Below, piece after piece: positions 3,764 to 56,085 of a stretch of DNA of 64,000 nucleotides. The notes beneath the pieces are model-generated. The model was not told where the DNA came from. It worked only from the letters and a program-made list of their open reading frames with translations, and made no database searches. Positions within the stretch are counted from its first letter, which is position 1. Every line of letters begins with the position of its first letter. The stretch spans positions 975-64,974 of the forward strand of contig CAJAUM010000115.1 of the NCBI GenBank assembly GCA_903945175.1. The letters run 5' to 3'. The DNA is from an uncultured Bacteroidales bacterium. GTDB lineage: Bacteria; Bacteroidota; Bacteroidia; Bacteroidales; FEN-979. The translations under genes were made by a program, and so were the position numbers.

Positions 3764-3783
3764 GTCACGCGTCACGCGTCACG
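3764..3783 (+). repeat. Heptamer tandem array (GTCACGC) x ~3, intergenic
   Basis: gtcacgc gtcacgc gtcacg read directly, 60 nt upstream of the mlaE start. Confidence 0.9.
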
Positions 3784-13234: not shown

Positions 13235-14482
13235 TCAGGGAGTCGGATTGACCCAGTCCCCATTTTCCTTGATGAGATTGATCAGCGCCTCCACCGCCAG
13301 GGATTCGTCAAGATTCTTTTCTACCAGTTGCTGTTTTTTGTACAAATTGATTTTGCCTTTGCCTGCGCCCACGTAACCATAGTGTGCGTCGGCCATTTCG
13401 CCTGGTCCGTTGACAACACAGCCCATCACGGCAATTTTCAGTCCGGACAGGTGCGATGTTTTAGCCTGAATATTTTCCAGCGCCGACTGGATATTAAATT
13501 GGGTCCGGCCGCATGAGGGGCAGGCAATAAACTCTGTTTTGGTAATCCGGGCCCCTGCTGCCTGGAGGATATTGTAAGCCACCGGAATTTCAAATTCAGG
13601 ATCTTCGGTGAGGGAAACCCTGATGGTATCGCCGATGCCATCGGCCAGCAAACTGCCGATCCCGATGGCTGACTTAATCCGTCCATCTTCTCCGGCGCCA
13701 GCTTCTGTGACCCCGAGGTGGAGCGGGTAATTCATACCAGCCTCCCTCATCTTCTCAACCAGCAAACGGTTAGCGGCGATCATCACCTTGGTGCTGCTGG
13801 CTTTCATAGATAAGACCAGATTTTGAAACGAGAGACTTTCGCAGACCAGTGCAAACTCCAGGGCTGACTGAACCATGCCCAACGGGGTGTCTCCATATTC
13901 GTTCATGATGCGATCGGAGAGCGACCCATGATTCACACCGATCCGGATGGCCGTGCCGTGATCTTTACAGATTTTTAAAAGCGGGGAGAGGCGCGTGGAA
14001 ATCAGTTCCAGCACATCACCCTCCGTGACGCGTGATGGATCAATCGTGACGCGTGATGGATCAATCGTGACGCGTGACGCATCAATCGTGACGCGTGACG
14101 CGTGACGCGTGACATTGCTTTTTTGACCTGGCATGTAATTCCCAGGATTAATCCTGATTTTTTCGACAATTCCTGCGGCGATTTCAGCGATTTTAGGATT
14201 AAAATGGACATCCGCGATCAGGGGGGTATTGTATCCGCGGAGGTGTAGTGCTTTTTTAATTTCCCGCAGATTTTCAGCCTCTTTAATTCCCGGAGTGGCA
14301 ATGCGGACATATTCACAGCCGGCTTCGATCATCCGGATGGCCTGTTCAACCGTCGCTTTGGTGTCGAGGCTGTTCGTGCTTGTCATCGACTGAACACGCA
14401 CGGGATTGTCCCCTCCCATGGGCAGATGGCCCACTTCAACAACCCGGGTTGCAAACCGCTGATATAATTGCTTGCCTTTCAT
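13235..14482 (-). CDS. ispG: 4-hydroxy-3-methylbut-2-en-1-yl diphosphate synthase, carrying an in-frame repeat insertion
   Basis: RINPGN, CPSCGRT and GCVVNGPGE motifs. 415 aa. Confidence 0.9.
   Translation of the reverse strand: MKGKQLYQRFATRVVEVGHLPMGGDNPVRVQSMTSTNSLDTKATVEQAIRMIEAGCEYVRIATPGIKEAENLREIKKALHLRGYNTPLIADVHFNPKIAEIAAGIVEKIRINPGNYMPGQKSNVTRHASRVTIDASRVTIDPSRVTIDPSRVTEGDVLELISTRLSPLLKICKDHGTAIRIGVNHGSLSDRIMNEYGDTPLGMVQSALEFALVCESLSFQNLVLSMKASSTKVMIAANRLLVEKMREAGMNYPLHLGVTEAGAGEDGRIKSAIGIGSLLADGIGDTIRVSLTEDPEFEIPVAYNILQAAGARITKTEFIACPSCGRTQFNIQSALENIQAKTSHLSGLKIAVMGCVVNGPGEMADAHYGYVGAGKGKINLYKKQQLVEKNLDESLAVEALINLIKENGDWVNPTP
14025..14113 (-). repeat. Heptamer-derived array inside ispG (three 21-nt super-units plus GTGACGC x ~3.7 on the plus strand)
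   Basis: Read directly: 14025-45, 14046-66 and 14067-87 are 21-mers gtgacgcgtga(t/c)g(g/c)atcaatc; 14088-14113 is gtgacgc repeated. Translates in frame as [30 protein letters not shown]. Confidence 0.95.
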
Positions 14483-14501: not shown

Positions 14502-15251
14502 CTAAATCAGCCCCTTCACCCTTGGCTTTCCTGCCACAAAATCTTTCAGGTAGAAGGGCTCAAAATAGGCCAGGCTTTCAAATTTTTTTTCTCTGAACTT
14601 CTCTTCTGCCAGCCTTGTGATGAATCTGGCTGATGCCTGGAATCCATCCATAAACAAAGCATTGGGATGATCGCCCAAGACAGGCTTGCATTTTTCAGCA
14701 CCTTCACCCCCGAAAGCAATCCTATGGTCAGTCAGGAGCTCCTGAAATGAAAAATCATCGATGATTTCAGCGCAAACCTCCCGAATCTCCCTGTTTTGCT
14801 GATCAAATACCGCACTGTAAACCTCCATTCTCCGCGCATCGATCATGGGACATAAAAAAATCCCGGATTGACCATTGGTCATTGGTAATTGGTCATTGGT
14901 CATTGGTAATTGGTCATCGGTCATTTGTAATTGGTCATTCATCCCCACGGCCATGGCCTGGAGTGTGTGAACGGCAATCAGGGGTTTATCGATGGCATAA
15001 CAAAGACCTTTTGCTGCAGCCACCCCAATGCGCAGACCGGTATATGAGCCGGGGCCCATGCTCACAGCAATGGCATCAAGATCAGTGATCTGAAATCCGG
15101 AAGATTTTATTAGGTCGTCGATAAACAGGGTGAGCATGGCAGAATGAACATTCCGTGCTGAAGATTCCTTTATTCCCAGGATCTTTTCATCGCGCGCCAA
15201 TGCCACGGAACAGACCTCAGTGGCCGTTTCAATGCAAAGGATCAGTGCCAT
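14502..15251 (-). CDS. tsaB: tRNA threonylcarbamoyladenosine biosynthesis protein TsaB, carrying an in-frame repeat insertion
   Basis: ILCIETATEVCSVAL N-terminus and GPGSYTGLRIGVAAAKG motif. 249 aa. Confidence 0.85.
   Translation of the reverse strand: MALILCIETATEVCSVALARDEKILGIKESSARNVHSAMLTLFIDDLIKSSGFQITDLDAIAVSMGPGSYTGLRIGVAAAKGLCYAIDKPLIAVHTLQAMAVGMNDQLQMTDDQLPMTNDQLPMTNGQSGIFLCPMIDARRMEVYSAVFDQQNREIREVCAEIIDDFSFQELLTDHRIAFGGEGAEKCKPVLGDHPNALFMDGFQASARFITRLAEEKFREKKFESLAYFEPFYLKDFVAGKPRVKGLI
14873..14942 (-). repeat. Heptamer tandem array inside tsaB (CATTGGT/AATTGGT x 10 on the plus strand)
   Basis: Ten consecutive 7-mers read directly, with a 21-nt higher-order pattern (cattggt cattggt aattggt). 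Translates in frame as the repeat tract MNDQLQMTDDQLPMTNDQLPMTNGQ within tsaB. Confidence 0.95.
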
Positions 15252-18267: not shown

Positions 18268-19428
18268 ATGACAGCAAGCAGATCACTCGTACCCGCTTTT
18301 CGTTTCCTTGCCCTCAGTGTCCTAATGGGCTTTTTATTAATAAGCAGGATCTATGCCTCCGCCCAGGACCATACCCAGCTTAATGCGGCAAGCGACAGTG
18401 TTTCCACGCCGCAGAGTGAAGCTGAAAGCCATAAGGCAGAGGGAAAGTTCAACGCAGGCGAGATGATCCTGGAACATGTCGTTGACAACCATGAATGGCA
18501 TGTGGCCGAAATCGGCAGCCTTCACCTGACCATTCCACTCCCGATCATCCTGCTGTACGATGGCAGGATCTACACCTTTTGTTCAAGCCGCTTTCACAAT
18601 GAATCAGGCAGTTACCTTGGATTCAAGCTTGAAAAGGAGGGGCCCCACAAAGGAAAAATCATCAGGATTGGAAGCCAGGGTGAATCGGCGGAGTCCATTC
18701 CTGTTTATGACTTCTCCATCACCAAAATAGTACTTGCCATTTTCATCAGTACGTTTTTGCTGATCCTGATCTTTGTTTCTGTTGCCAACAGTTTCAAGCG
18801 AAACAGGAATAAAGCACCCAGCGGGCTGCAGTCACTTCTTGAGCCCCTGATTATTTTTATCCGGGATGACGTTGCAAAAAGTTCGATCGGAGAAAAAAAG
18901 TACGAAAAGTTTATGCCTTTTTTACTGACAGTATTCTTTTTTATTTTCTTTAATAACCTCTTCGGACTGATTCCCTTTTTTCCCGGAGGGGCCAACGTAA
19001 CCGGGAATATTGCCGTTACACTGGTCATGGCTGTGTTTACCTTTGTTATTACCACGATCAGCGGGAATAAACATTACTGGATCGATATCATCAATACGCC
19101 CGGGGTTCCCTGGTGGCTGAAGTTCCCGGTGCCTCTGATGCCGGTGGTTGAGATTATCGGAATCATCACCAAGCCATTTGTACTGATGATTCGTCTCTTT
19201 GCAAACATTACCGCCGGGCACATCATCGTGCTTGGTTTCGTTAGCCTGATCTTTATTTTCGGGGCTATCAGCGCGGCACTCGGTGTCGGAGTTTCTGTTG
19301 TTTCTGTTGCATTCATGCTTTTTATGAATTTACTGGAATTGCTGGTTGCCTTCATTCAGGCCTATGTGTTCACCCTGTTATCGGCGCTTTATTTCGGACT
19401 TGCAACAACAGAACCGGAACACCATTGA
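18268..19428 (+). CDS. atpB: F0F1 ATP synthase subunit a
   Basis: C-terminal helices with the RLFANITAGH motif. The start was taken at the ATG at 18268. The TGA stop is the first triplet of the following heptamer array. Confidence 0.9.
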   Translation: MTASRSLVPAFRFLALSVLMGFLLISRIYASAQDHTQLNAASDSVSTPQSEAESHKAEGKFNAGEMILEHVVDNHEWHVAEIGSLHLTIPLPIILLYDGRIYTFCSSRFHNESGSYLGFKLEKEGPHKGKIIRIGSQGESAESIPVYDFSITKIVLAIFISTFLLILIFVSVANSFKRNRNKAPSGLQSLLEPLIIFIRDDVAKSSIGEKKYEKFMPFLLTVFFFIFFNNLFGLIPFFPGGANVTGNIAVTLVMAVFTFVITTISGNKHYWIDIINTPGVPWWLKFPVPLMPVVEIIGIITKPFVLMIRLFANITAGHIIVLGFVSLIFIFGAISAALGVGVSVVSVAFMLFMNLLELLVAFIQAYVFTLLSALYFGLATTEPEHH

Positions 19429-19470
19429 CGAATGACGAGTGACGAATGACGAGTGACGAATGACGAATGA
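19426..19470 (+). repeat. Heptamer tandem array (TGACGAA/TGACGAG x 6.4) at the atpB stop
   Basis: tgacgaa tgacgag tgacgaa tgacgag tgacgaa tgacgaa tga read directly. Confidence 0.95.
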
Positions 19471-19764
<294 letters not shown>

Positions 19765-36990: not shown

Positions 36991-37060
36991 GGAATTAGCC
37001 AATAGCCATTAGGGAAAAGGAAAGCCTCAATGGCCAATGGCTAATGGCTAATGCCTTTTT
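36991..37060 (+). repeat. Inverted heptamer arrays forming an 18/20-bp hairpin plus T5 between nuoK and nuoL
   Basis: Left arm ggaattagccaatagccatt (36991-37010) pairs with right arm aatggctaatggctaatgcc (37036-37055). 25-nt loop, then ttttt. The units are AGCCAAT/AGCCATT and their complement AATGGCT. Confidence 0.9.
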
Positions 37061-48455: not shown

Positions 48456-48483
48456 CGTGATGCGTGAAGCGTGACACGTGACA
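48456..48483 (+). repeat. Heptamer tandem array (CGTGATG CGTGAAG CGTGACA CGTGACA) 3 nt after the tonB stop
   Basis: Read directly. It belongs to the GTGAC/GTCAC class. Confidence 0.85.
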
Positions 48484-54432: not shown

Positions 54433-55466
54433 ATGAGCGTTGAAACATTTGTTACCGATAAAGCCGGCTTGATCACATTCTATGAAGCCATCATGGCCAG
54501 TCACGAAACCTATGCCCCGGTCGAGAAATTCGGCAAATTTGATTTTAAGCAGGTGAAAAGCCTGGCGGAATGTGACCCAGAATCGCCCATTGCAAAGACC
54601 CAGAGCATCAAGCCCCTTTTCTTCCCCAGGTCGGCCAAGGTGATGAAATATGTTGCCACAAGCACAGGAACGGAAGTTTCGGAGGTTGATGAGGATCCGC
54701 TTGCCGTTAAACGCGTCATCCTGGGCGCAAAACATTGCGATGCCCGTGCATTGCAGGTTCTTGACAAGGTATACAACTGGGATTACATCGATACCGATTA
54801 CCAGAAGCGCCGGGAAAATACTGTGATTATCTCGACCCGTTGCGACAAGGCTGACACCCATTGTTTCTGCACTTCGCTCGATTACGATGTTGAAAATCTC
54901 AATGCCATGGATGTTTTGGTTGTACATGGATCCGATGGAAAGGTTTACATCAAAGCCAGGACAGAGAAAGGTTCTACACTTTTAAATACAGAGGTCACGC
55001 GTCACGCGTCACGTGTCACGGAAGAAGCCGCAGCACCCGACCTGAAAAAGCAATACGAAGCCTTTGCGGGTTCTTTCAGGCTTAAGATGGATTATTCGGA
55101 GGTTAATTCAAAATTGTCGAAGATCTTCGACACCCCGGAATTTGAAAATGTCTCGGGAAATTGTGTGAGCTGCAACACCTGTGCCTTTGTTTGTCCGACC
55201 TGCCATTGCTTCAAAATCTCCGATGAAAAAATCAAAGATACAGGGTTGCGATATAAAAGCTATGACTCCTGTAACAACGGATATTTTACCCTGATGGCGG
55301 GCGGTCACAATCCCCGTCCGGCCAAGTACCGTCGCTGGCGGCAGCGTGCCATGCACAAGTTTGTATACTACAAGGAGCGCTTTGGCGAGAACCTTTGTGT
55401 GGGGTGCGGTAAATGTACCATAGCCTGCCCGGTAAACATCAGTATTTTTGAGGTGGTTAATCAGGT

Positions 55467-55488
<22 letters not shown>
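54433..55488 (+). CDS. flxB: AsrA / sulfhydrogenase-beta-like 4Fe-4S protein (FlxB-like) with an in-frame heptamer insertion and a repeat-encoded C-terminus
   Basis: [16 protein letters not shown] and [12 protein letters not shown] motifs. The last 7 codons and the TAG stop lie in the GGCAGTA array. Confidence 0.65.
54994..55021 (+). repeat. Heptamer tandem array (GTCACGC x 4, last two degenerate) inside flxB
   Basis: gtcacgc gtcacgc gtcacgt gtcacgg read directly. Translates in frame as VTRHASRVT. Confidence 0.95.
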
Positions 55489-55627
<139 letters not shown>

Positions 55628-55633
55628 AAGGGG

Positions 55634-56020
55634 ATGGAAGTGGAAAAGAAAAAAATTGTTTCCTATAAAGATCTTGAGGTCTGGAAAAAGGGGGTCCGAT
55701 TTACCATTGAAATCTACAGAATTACCAGCGAGTTTCCAAGTAGGGAACAATTCGGGCTTACCAATCAGTTGCGCAGGGCCGCATCCTCTATCCCTGCCAA
55801 TATTGCAGAAGGATATGGTCGTGAGAGCACGAAAAATTATATTCAGTTCCTTAAAACTGCCAGAGGTTCATTGAATGAAGTCGAAACTTTTCTTTATATA
55901 GGATTTGAATTGGAATATCTTAATAAACAAACCCTTGACAACTTGATTATTAAAACCACTGAACTTGGAAAAATGATGAATAGCCTGATCAAAAAACTAA
56001 ACCCTAACCCCACTGCCTAA
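55634..56020 (+). CDS. Four-helix-bundle protein (23S rRNA intervening-sequence protein / Avd family)
   Basis: [10 protein letters not shown]...[30 protein letters not shown]...[16 protein letters not shown] are hallmark motifs of the family. Confidence 0.9.
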
Positions 56021-56045
56021 TGCCTACTGCCTATTGCCTATTGCC
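56011..56045 (-). repeat. Inverted copy of the GGCAGTA/GGCAATA array (5 units)
   Basis: cactgcc taatgcc tactgcc tattgcc tattgcc. Its reverse complement matches array units 13-17 (55551-55585) at 33/35 positions. It contains the TAA stop of the four-helix-bundle gene. Confidence 0.95.
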
Positions 56046-56085
56046 TTATCCCAATCAAGATTAACAAAACATCACACACATAACT

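What the first reader, a model, noticed from the sequence alone, without database searches (positions are those of the whole stretch)
14873..14942. Ten-unit heptamer array in frame inside tsaB, 800 nt from the ispG array
Seen: CATTGGT/AATTGGT x 10 on the plus strand, organised as a 21-nt super-unit (cattggt cattggt aattggt). It reads in the tsaB frame as the repeat tract MNDQLQMTDDQLPMTNDQLPMTNGQ. tsaB is 249 aa. Two neighbouring essential genes each carry a different heptamer class, so this is not a single duplication event. The cyclic unit TTGGTCA equals the cyanobacterial STRR2 unit as I recall it.
Basis: partly seen in the sequence, partly recalled or inferred. Interest (0 to 1): 0.65.

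Follow-up and report, generated by a model that had tools for sequence, protein, structure and literature searches.

The report
In-frame heptamer repeat inside tsaB
Ten copies of a 7-base repeat sit in frame in the flexible hinge of the housekeeping protein TsaB, in an uncultured Bacteroidota bacterium whose genome is full of such repeats. It looks like a tolerated, length-variable microsatellite of a known kind, not a new functional element.

Summary
Window 14873-14942 holds about 10 tandem heptamers (sense strand AATGACC/AATTACC) inside tsaB (14502-15251, minus strand, 249 aa, TIGR03725).

- **Position in the protein:** the tract encodes residues about 104-128. That is the end of helix alpha3 plus a low-confidence loop joining the two ASKHA subdomains.
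- **The 21-nt super-unit:** a pure (AATGACC)n array has TGA in all three frames. Exactly the three in-frame units (2, 5, 8) carry TGA->TTA.
- **Variation:** strain variants differ by +7 or -14 aa, and a sister species by -7 aa. No frameshift allele was seen. Relatives carry other heptapeptide repeats at the same site, or none at all (227 aa).
- **Genome context:** the lineage has about 15 period-7 arrays per 100 kb, against about 2 in other Bacteroidota loci. The arrays fall into a few unit families per genome. One intergenic array elsewhere in this genome shares 37-39 identical bases with the tsaB array.

Best reading: a slippage-generated heptanucleotide array of the STRR/LSSR type, tolerated in a permissive linker and limited by selection to 21-nt steps.

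Still open:
- Some contigs join the tsaB array reciprocally to the second locus. This is either assembly chimerism or real ectopic recombination.
- The identity of the unit with cyanobacterial STRR2 rests on memory only.

The parts
14873..14942 (-). Heptamer array. Sense-strand units are AATGACC AATTACA AATGACC GATGACC AATTACC AATGACC AATGACC AATTACC AATGACC AATGGTC. It encodes TsaB residues about 105-128 (NDQLQMTDDQLPMTNDQLPMTNGQ).
   Evidence: TRF period 7 score 99 and period 21 score 120. Units 2, 5 and 8 carry the TGA->TTA change that keeps the frame open.
14502..15251 (-). tsaB (TsaB/YeaZ, t6A complex dimerisation subunit), 249 aa.
   Evidence: TIGR03725, 153.7 bits; PF00814; AF2 model; Foldseek to 1okj/4ydu YeaZ chains.
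14024..14113 (-). Heptamer-derived array in ispG (sense GTCACGC class, amplified as a 21-nt unit). It encodes SRVTID[AP] repeats. Strain variants give IspG of 415 or 401 aa.
13235..14482 (-). ispG (GcpE), immediately downstream of tsaB.
19424..19471 (+). AATGACG array, one mismatch from the tsaB unit. It supplies the atpB stop codon and fills the atpB-atpE spacer. It is the same unit family as the tsaB array.
37026..37057 (+). CAATGGC/TAATGGC array upstream of a NuoL-like gene, one mismatch from the tsaB unit class.
3764..3783 (+). GTCACGC array upstream of mlaE (ispG unit family).
48456..48483 (+). CGTGAAG/CGTGACA array between the tonB-like and pirin genes, one mismatch from the ispG unit family.
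54992..55022 (+). GTCACGC array in frame inside a Fer4_22 protein gene. It encodes VTRHASRVT.
55462..55628 (+). GGCAGTA/GGCAATA array, about 23 copies. It contains the stop codon of the Fer4_22 gene and ends 6 nt before a PF05635 gene.
56012..56049 (+). TGCCTAT/TGCCTAC array, the reverse-complement class of the 55462 array, at the 3' end of the PF05635 gene.

Best explanation
The tract is a heptanucleotide microsatellite of the STRR / long-simple-sequence-repeat type. It sits in the interdomain linker of TsaB and is carried along as a tolerated, disordered heptapeptide-repeat insertion.

**Shown:**
- The array is real and in frame.
- It maps to the end of helix alpha3 and a low-confidence loop.
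- The linker is dispensable in relatives.
- Copy number differs between strains and species only in steps of three heptamers (21 nt, 7 aa).
- A pure (AATGACC)n array has TGA in all three frames. Exactly the heptamers that fall in phase carry G->T (TGA->TTA), which produces the 21-nt super-unit.
- The host lineage is about 8-fold enriched in period-7 arrays, which fall into a few unit families per genome.

**Inferred:**
- Arrays grow and shrink by replication slippage in 7-nt steps. In this essential gene every change that is not a multiple of 3 nt puts a stop codon in frame inside the array and is removed by selection, so only 21-nt changes survive.
- The first heptapeptide block (N-x-[QKE]-[LF]-x-[MI]-x, from AATnnnn) descends from one old array in the common ancestor of the clade. 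Unit sequences then drifted and secondary arrays arose next to it.
- Arrays at different loci exchange sequence by ectopic gene conversion.
For: - **Array and frame:**
- **TsaB identity:**
- **Linker position:** one search gives helix 96-114, pLDDT below 50 for 114-128, and strand 131-138. One search shows 11 E. coli residues where this protein has 31.
- **Permissive site:** in alignment A1 the flanks TLQAMAxGM and CPMIDARRMEVY are nearly invariant. Between them the length runs from almost none (P0053, 227 aa) to a much longer insert (P0119, 286 aa). Different 7-aa repeats occur there: NDQLPMT, NYELKIK, LPTANCQ x5, RFQVPGS, ISDFRFQ, IRNPKSE. The GPGS-to-DARR distance is 50-62 aa in the other Bacteroidota loci, against 72 here and 79 in L165.
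- **21-nt steps only:** P0125 and P0123 are +7 aa and P0002 is -14 aa. In the sister species P0132 and P0133 are each -7 aa, at two different sub-arrays. No frameshift allele occurs among 16 cluster members. IspG is 415 versus 401 aa.
- **Stop avoidance:**
- **No competing signal:** there is no strand secondary structure (z-scores +1.0 and +0.7) and no Rfam family.
- **Lineage enrichment:** 15.3 period-7 arrays per 100 kb in the window plus three relatives, against 1.9 in 160 other loci. No other period is enriched.
- **Unit families:** 15 of 64 within-genome array pairs are within one mismatch, against 1.8% expected.
- **Second locus:** it carries the same 21-nt super-unit.
- **Literature:** heptanucleotide repeats are the most abundant long SSR class in prokaryotes, are mostly intergenic and occur in some Bacteroidetes (PMC4679880; PMC4692102).
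Against: - No read-level data were available, so slippage and the absence of low-frequency alleles that are not multiples of 3 nt are inferred from assemblies and called proteins only.
- Between the window and L167 the aligned array codons are 94% identical, third positions included. Flanking tsaB third positions are only 56% identical. Strict neutrality does not predict this. L169 weakens the argument, because it is equally divergent (53%) yet has changed unit class in tsaB and ispG.
- The intergenic locus-X array has the same stop-avoiding 21-nt pattern although nothing there requires an open frame. Either sequence moved between the loci, or some factor prefers this pattern.
- The reason why periods of exactly 7 nt are favoured in this lineage was not addressed.
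Confidence: 0.8

Rival explanations
1. Contingency (phase-variation) switch. Gain or loss of single heptamers shifts the frame and turns TsaB off and on, as tetra- and heptanucleotide repeats do in Haemophilus or Neisseria surface genes.
For: The unit length is not a multiple of 3. The two other frames carry a stop every 7 codons, so any change of one or two units would end translation right after domain I. Copy number is clearly unstable.
Against: All full-length variants differ by multiples of 21 nt, and no frameshift allele was seen among cluster members from dozens of contigs. TsaB is a housekeeping t6A subunit, not a surface or restriction-modification gene. The neighbouring ispG and a Fer4 gene carry in-frame arrays too. 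Truncated 'proteins' in the cluster are explained by contig ends or by junctions with a second locus, not by frameshifts.
Confidence: 0.03
2. Selected protein feature. The heptapeptide repeat is an adaptive, tunable linker that sets the spacing or flexibility between the two TsaB subdomains, or contacts TsaD or TsaE.
For: The array sequence is well conserved between the window and L167 (94% against 56% at flanking third positions). The pattern N-x-[QKE]-[LF]-x-[MI]-x persists over much of the clade. Residues 104-114 are predicted to extend helix alpha3.
Against: Relatives at 67-74% identity have no tract (P0053, 227 aa) or quite different repeat peptides. pLDDT is below 50 across most of the tract. 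The N/[LF]/[IM] pattern is what any AATnnnn heptamer gives in this frame, so it reflects the DNA and not the peptide. From published YgjD-YeaZ structures (my own knowledge, not computed here) the TsaB-TsaD interface uses helices alpha1 and alpha2 of domain I, not this linker.
Confidence: 0.06
3. Cis-acting nucleic-acid element. The heptamer families are binding sites on DNA or mRNA for a trans-acting factor, as has been proposed for the TAACTGA repeats. The tsaB copy would then be one such site that happens to lie in coding sequence, for example modulating tsaB-ispG expression.
For: A few unit families recur at many loci in one genome. Most intergenic arrays lie directly upstream of start codons or at stop codons within operons. 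The unit class was retained at three orthologous sites in L167. The same super-unit occurs at an intergenic site.
Against: Both orientations relative to transcription occur within one family (48456 against 3764 and 54992; 56012 against 55462). Unit classes turn over at orthologous sites between equally related genomes (L169, L170). No candidate factor was identified, no structure is predicted and there is no Rfam match. No expression data are available.
Confidence: 0.08
4. Assembly artefact. The array, or its length, was created by the assembler.
For: Assemblies do break at these repeats. There is a scaffold gap of Ns next to the ispG array in L081, and contigs end at an octamer array.
Against: The identical 249-aa protein was found on 19 contigs that were read (50 index blocks), from different samples and assembly styles. 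The three loci inspected have the same array DNA. Orthologous arrays are present in related species.
Confidence: 0.01

Closest known systems
Cyanobacterial STRR (short tandemly repeated repetitive) heptamers (Mazel et al. 1990, from my own knowledge; mentioned in PMC2670836 and PMC4692102)
   Same: Both are tandem 7-nt units. A few unit families each occur at many dispersed loci in one genome, copy number varies, and most copies are intergenic near gene ends. Function is unknown in both. The unit here rotates to TTGGTCA, which I recall as STRR2.
   Different: The host is an uncultured Bacteroidota, not a filamentous cyanobacterium. This copy is in frame in the middle of an essential gene and carries a periodic stop-avoiding substitution. 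The STRR2 sequence could not be verified in the library.
Long simple sequence repeats (LSSR) of prokaryotes, heptanucleotide class (Mrazek et al. 2007, as summarised in PMC4679880)
   Same: Heptanucleotides are the dominant long-SSR class, and slippage is the proposed origin. Lineage-specific abundance is seen here too (15 against 2 per 100 kb).
   Different: That survey noted that repeat units in coding regions are mostly multiples of three. Here a 7-nt unit is accommodated in frame as triplets of units.
TAACTGA heptamer repeats of Beggiatoaceae, Cyanobacteria and five Bacteroidetes (MacGregor 2015, PMC4679880)
   Same: These are heptamer direct repeats in Bacteroidetes too, often immediately upstream of start codons. 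One set lies inside a gene (purC). The stop codons contained in the unit limit where arrays can sit in coding sequence.
   Different: The unit sequences differ. TAACTGA arrays end ORFs, whereas here the in-frame stop has been mutated away in every third unit, so the array is read through.
GGGNATC G-quadruplex heptamer repeats of Xanthomonas and Nostoc (Rehm et al. 2015, PMC4692102)
   Same: These are genome-wide heptamer arrays of 2-26 units, located near stop and start codons and under-represented in coding regions.
   Different: The units here are not G-rich, no structure is predicted, and there is no preference for four units.
SSR contingency loci (for example the heptanucleotide repeats controlling HMW1A in Haemophilus influenzae, PMC8262952)
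   Same: Both are unstable tandem repeats whose unit length is not a multiple of three, associated with a gene.
   Different: No ON/OFF alleles were seen, and the gene is housekeeping. Only frame-preserving changes are observed.

Membership tests
STRR / heptanucleotide LSSR arrays | Head-to-tail tandem copies of a 7-nt unit, several copies, beyond chance | tested here: met
   TRF reports period 7, 9.6 copies, score 99. There are 8 pattern matches against 0.06 expected. Only lag 7 is enriched.
STRR / heptanucleotide LSSR arrays | The same unit family present at several dispersed loci of the same genome | tested here: met
   The AATGACC family occurs at tsaB, the atpB-atpE spacer, position 37026 and locus X (L173). 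The GTCACGC family occurs at four sites. 15 of 64 within-genome pairs are within one mismatch, against 1.8% expected.
STRR / heptanucleotide LSSR arrays | Copy-number polymorphism between strains | tested here: met
   TsaB occurs as 249-aa and 256-aa forms, with a -14 aa form at 84% identity. IspG occurs as 415 and 401 aa.
STRR / heptanucleotide LSSR arrays | Predominantly intergenic location | tested here: met
   This holds for the genome: 6 of the 9 window arrays are intergenic or overlap only a stop codon. This particular copy is one of three coding exceptions.
Cyanobacterial STRR2 specifically | Unit TTGGTCA in a cyanobacterial genome | not testable with these tools
   The unit rotates to TTGGTCA. 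The published STRR2 sequence could not be retrieved. The host is Bacteroidota, so this is a resemblance of unit at most, not membership.
TsaB (TIGR03725) | Profile score above the curated cut-off and a two-subdomain ASKHA fold | tested here: met
   The score is 153.7 bits against a cut-off of 69.3. The AF2 model matches YeaZ 1okj with E=7.9e-18 and target-normalised TM-score 0.81.
SSR phase-variation (contingency) locus | Frame-shifted OFF alleles coexisting with ON alleles in populations | tested here: not met
   Only changes in multiples of 21 nt occur among cluster members. Truncated entries are explained otherwise. Read-level data were not available.
SSR phase-variation (contingency) locus | Gene for a surface, host-interaction or restriction-modification function | tested here: not met
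   The gene is tsaB, a t6A housekeeping gene.
Structured protein tandem repeat (heptad or coiled-coil type domain) | Repeat conserved among orthologues and predicted to fold | tested here: not met
   pLDDT is below 50 for residues 114-128. The repeat is absent or different in orthologues.

The most novel reading that the evidence does not exclude
The heptamer arrays may not be passive microsatellites. They could be an interacting, genome-wide family kept similar by frequent ectopic recombination, and the reciprocal junction contigs would then be real. The junctions are tolC-MFP-tsaB 5' half-array-wbuC, and ABC-F-array-tsaB 3' half-ispG. They were seen in at least two samples and two strain backgrounds, with flanks 100% identical to the window. 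On this reading, recombination between the tsaB array and the identical-class array at the ABC-F/WbuC locus recurrently inverts a chromosome segment. That would split TsaB exactly at its interdomain linker into two separately encoded domains. The 3' half keeps an in-frame ATG inside the array, giving MTNGQSGIFLCPMIDARR...
Probability: 0.12. Interest if true: 0.7.

Novelty: new member of a known kind. Interest (0 to 1): 0.35.

Why it matters
Heptanucleotide arrays (STRR/LSSR) have been known since 1990, but neither their origin nor their function is understood.

This lineage offers a clean natural experiment. Arrays of several unit families sit in frame in essential genes (tsaB, ispG). Selection there shows which changes are tolerated: steps of 21 nt only, and a stop-destroying substitution in every third unit. 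Sister arrays of the same family sit in intergenic DNA without that filter.

Public metagenomes already contain multiple length alleles. Read-level analysis could therefore measure the slippage spectrum and test for exchange between arrays.

For annotation, it is a reminder that odd low-complexity heptapeptide inserts in housekeeping proteins of such genomes are products of DNA repeats, not domains. Assemblies may also break or mis-join at these arrays.

Tried and rejected
- **Genome scans.** A genome-contig scan with the single protein found nothing. Close relatives therefore had to be fetched one at a time by exact protein look-up.
- **Missing DNA.** DNA for P0022 (LPTANCQ x5) and P0020 was not available.
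- **STRR2 sequence.** Four attempts to verify that STRR2 is TTGGTCA failed: two searches, one primer false positive, and the Mazel 1990 DOI, which is not held. Mrazek 2007 is not held either.
- **Frameshift alleles.** The truncated cluster members (114, 133 and 134 aa) looked like candidates. They turned out to be junctions with a second locus, or contig ends. The 'split' ispG in L081 is a scaffold N-gap.
- **Hairpin or slipped-structure element.** Rejected. Folding energies are no better than shuffles on either strand.
- **Known RNA family.** None in the whole window.
- **Link to PF05635 genes.** Only one such gene occurs in the window and about 1 Mb of fetched loci, so there is no general link between heptamer arrays and these four-helix-bundle genes.
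- **Fixed orientation relative to transcription.** Rejected, because both orientations occur within a family.
- **Strong purifying selection on the unit.** Suggested by L167, but L169 at equal divergence has changed class. I do not claim it.
- **Blocked look-up.** I reached the locus through a homology search instead.

Full report

Yes. Window 14873-14942 reads CATTGGT CATTGGT AATTGGT CATTGGT CATTGGT AATTGGT CATCGGT CATTTGT AATTGGT CATTCAT. Tandem Repeats Finder reports period 7 (9.6 copies, score 99) and period 21 (3.2 copies, 93% matches, score 120). A degenerate 17-mer of the unit matches 8 times in the window, all here, against 0.06 expected from shuffles. A lag-autocorrelation scan of the window finds arrays only at lag 7 and at none of lags 4-6 or 8-12.

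The array lies in ORF 14502..15251 on the minus strand (249 aa) and reads MNDQLQMTDDQLPMTNDQLPMTNGQ in that frame. The ORF is TsaB: TIGR03725 at 153.7 bits against a cut-off of 69.3, plus PF00814.

The identical protein is indexed on contigs in 50 blocks of the public collection. Of these, 19 contigs were read, from different samples and assembly styles. The three loci whose DNA I inspected have exactly the same array. It is therefore not an assembly artefact.

**2. Where does it sit in the protein?**

An AlphaFold2 model built on 37 relatives has mean pLDDT 84.5 and pTM 0.83. It has a helix at 96-114, a segment with pLDDT below 50 at 114-128, and the first strand of the second subdomain at 131-138. 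The model superposes on E. coli YeaZ (1okj) with E=7.9e-18 and a TM-score of 0.81 normalised to the target. In the sequence alignment to E. coli TsaB, query residue 103 pairs with residue 101 and query 135 with residue 113. E. coli thus has 11 residues where this protein has 31.

From published YgjD-YeaZ structures (my knowledge, not computed here), the TsaD interface is formed by helices alpha1 and alpha2 and not by this linker.

**3. Why the 21-nt super-unit?**

On the sense strand the units are AATGACC, AATTACA, AATGACC, GATGACC, AATTACC, AATGACC, AATGACC, AATTACC, AATGACC, AATGGTC. A pure (AATGACC)n array translates as NDQ*PMT in every frame, because the TGA cycles through all three frames every 21 nt. 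In tsaB, exactly units 2, 5 and 8 are the ones whose TGA would be in frame, and those three carry G->T (TGA->TTA, Leu). The other two frames keep a stop every seven codons.

The super-unit is thus a mark of selection for an open reading frame. The same logic fits the relatives:
- AGGTTCC (L170) and GTCACGC (ispG) contain no stop trinucleotide.
- In L170 the array is pure over about 12 copies.
- AATTAAA (L169) would give an in-frame TAA, and its first unit is AATTATG.

**4. Variation.**

Within the 90% identity cluster of this protein there are in-frame length alleles:
- 249 aa: P0001 on 30 contigs, and P0121 with one T->A change.
- 256 aa: P0125, one extra MTDDQLP.
- P0123: an N-terminally truncated entry (192 aa) whose tract carries one extra 7-aa unit, at a different place from P0125.
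- P0002 (84% identity): 14 aa shorter.

In a sister species (about 72% identity), P0132 and P0133 are each 7 aa shorter than P0131, at two different sub-arrays. IspG likewise occurs as 415 and 401 aa. Every difference is a multiple of 21 nt, and no frameshift allele was seen.

Across 37 relatives at 60-89% identity, the flanks TLQAMAxGM and CPMIDARRMEVY are nearly invariant. Between them the insert ranges from almost nothing (P0053, 227 aa) to much longer inserts (P0119, 286 aa). It contains other heptapeptide repeats: NYELKIK, EVQSAKC, LPTANCQ x5, RFQVPGS, ISDFRFQ, IRNPKSE. DNA from L169, L170 and L003 shows that these are heptamer arrays of other classes: AATTAAA, AGTGCAA, AGGTTCC and AAATCGA.

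Many relatives share the pattern N-x-[QKE]-[LF]-x-[MI]-x directly after GM. Any AATnnnn heptamer gives this pattern in this frame. I infer one old array whose unit has drifted, with younger arrays beside it.

In 160 other Bacteroidota loci the GPGS-to-DARR distance is 50-62 aa, against 72 here and 79 in L165. A few unrelated lineages (L003, L106, L114) also have period-7 arrays at this spot. The linker is a naturally permissive site.

**5. Genome context.**

All relatives are Bacteroidota. The nearest named genome is a Bacteroidales MAG at 62% identity. The window has nine period-7 arrays. Three are coding and in frame: tsaB, ispG and a Fer4_22 gene. The rest lie at stop codons or just upstream of start codons.

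The window plus three syntenic relatives carry 15.3 period-7 arrays per 100 kb, against 1.9 in 888 kb from other Bacteroidota. No other period is enriched.

Arrays fall into a few unit families per genome:
- AATGACC-like: tsaB, the atpB-atpE spacer, 37026, and a second locus outside the window.
- GTCACGC: upstream of mlaE, ispG, Fer4_22, and 48456.
- GGCAGTA: 55462 and 56012.

Of 64 within-genome pairs, 15 are within one mismatch, against 1.8% expected. This is the behaviour described for cyanobacterial STRRs and for prokaryotic long SSRs, among which heptanucleotides are the commonest class, mostly intergenic (PMC4679880; PMC4692102).

Orthologous arrays at tsaB, ispG and the atp spacer keep their class in L167. 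They have changed class in L169 and L170.

**6. Mechanism.**

The best-supported reading has four parts:
- Arrays arise and change length by replication slippage in a lineage prone to 7-nt repeats.
- In tsaB, any change that is not a multiple of 3 nt puts a stop in frame inside the array and is eliminated.
- Changes of 21 nt are nearly neutral, because the tract is a disordered and dispensable linker.
- Unit sequence drifts and is homogenised within arrays, and probably between them.

Slippage itself and the absence of rare out-of-frame alleles are inferred, because no reads were available.

Two observations are not fully explained:
- Aligned array codons of the window and L167 are 94% identical, third positions included, while flanking third positions are 56% identical. 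L169, at the same divergence, has switched class.
- The intergenic array at the second locus (L173: ABC-F stop TAG, then (ACCAATG ACCAATT ACCAATG) x2, then the wbuC-like gene) has the same stop-avoiding 21-nt pattern and 37-39 identical bases. This suggests sequence transfer between the two arrays.

**7. Rivals.**

- **Phase variation.** The architecture would allow it, but no OFF alleles are seen, the gene is housekeeping, and neighbouring genes carry in-frame arrays too.
- **A selected linker peptide.** Contradicted by relatives without a tract and by the low model confidence.
- **A cis-acting binding-site family.** Not excluded. It would account for the family structure and the positions near start codons. 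However, orientation is not fixed, classes turn over, and there is no structure or Rfam match.

**8. Side lead: junction contigs.**

Contig L084 runs tolC-MFP-tsaB 5' half-array and then continues into the wbuC-like gene. Contigs L171 and L172 run ABC-F-TAG-array-tsaB 3' half-ispG. These are the two reciprocal junctions expected from an exchange between the tsaB array and the locus-X array.

They occur in at least two samples and on two strain backgrounds (IspG 415 and 401 aa). Their tsaB-side flanks are 100% identical to the window or to L165.

This is either repeat-induced chimerism, in library preparation or assembly, or real and recurrent ectopic recombination. The latter would be an inversion that splits tsaB at its linker. 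I lean towards artefact, because tsaB is normally essential and the intact arrangement dominates, but the tools here cannot decide.

**9. Verdict.**

It is a new instance, in Bacteroidota and in frame in an essential gene, of the known heptanucleotide STRR/LSSR phenomenon. The stop-avoidance explanation for the 21-nt super-unit, and the evidence for array families and array-to-array similarity, are the useful additions. Interest is moderate.

Noticed in passing
window 55462-55628, 55634-56020, 56012-56049: A 128-aa PF05635 gene ('23S rRNA intervening sequence protein', bAvd-like) is wedged between a Fer4_22 gene and an FAD/NAD oxidoreductase gene. It is bracketed by inverted heptamer arrays: (GGCAGTA/GGCAATA) x about 23 upstream, and the reverse-complement class (TGCCTAT/TGCCTAC) x about 5 at its 3' end. 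This looks like an inserted cassette with repeat ends. It is the only PF05635 gene in the window and the fetched loci.
   Followed up: partly
L084 3294-3400; L171 1700-1760; L172 1880-1940; L173 1813-1860: Reciprocal junction contigs join the tsaB array to an identical-class array between an ABC-F ATPase gene and a WbuC-like cupin gene. The flanks are 100% identical to the window. The junctions occur in at least two samples and on two strain backgrounds. They are either chimeric assemblies or real ectopic recombination that splits tsaB.
   Followed up: partly
L172 1-190; L173 90-125; L171 1-12: An octamer array (YTGTTACC) lies just upstream of the ABC-F gene. It has about 3 copies in L173 and more than 20 in L172, and contig L171 starts inside it. 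Not all unstable arrays in this organism are heptamers, and contigs end at them.
   Followed up: no
window 19424-19471 and the atpB-atpE spacers of L167, L169, L170: The atpB stop codon (TGA) is the first unit of an AATGACG array. The atpB-atpE spacer holds a heptamer array in every relative examined, with the unit class changing (AATGACG, AATKACS, CCTTGAA x8). In L169 an inverted copy of the array follows, which could form a hairpin.
   Followed up: partly
window 54992-55022 and 55462-55488: The Fer4_22 protein (54433-55488) carries an in-frame GTCACGC array that encodes VTRHASRVT, the same heptapeptide as in IspG. Its stop codon TAG lies inside the next array, GGCAATAGG.
   Followed up: partly
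L081 3672-3771: The ispG gene is called as a 223-aa fragment there only because a run of Ns (a scaffold gap) lies next to the ispG repeat. It is an example of assemblies failing at these arrays, not a frameshift allele.
   Followed up: yes
L170 11424-11487 and 18252-18289: In the relative GCA_026391715.1, further heptamer arrays lie within the spans of called genes. TCGGATT x8 lies in a MeaB-like GTPase gene and a CCTCGTC-like array in a peptidase M17 gene. In-frame heptamer arrays in housekeeping genes may therefore be common in this clade. Frame and protein position were not checked.
   Followed up: no
window, whole: No Rfam family reaches its gathering score anywhere in the 64 kb.
   Followed up: yes
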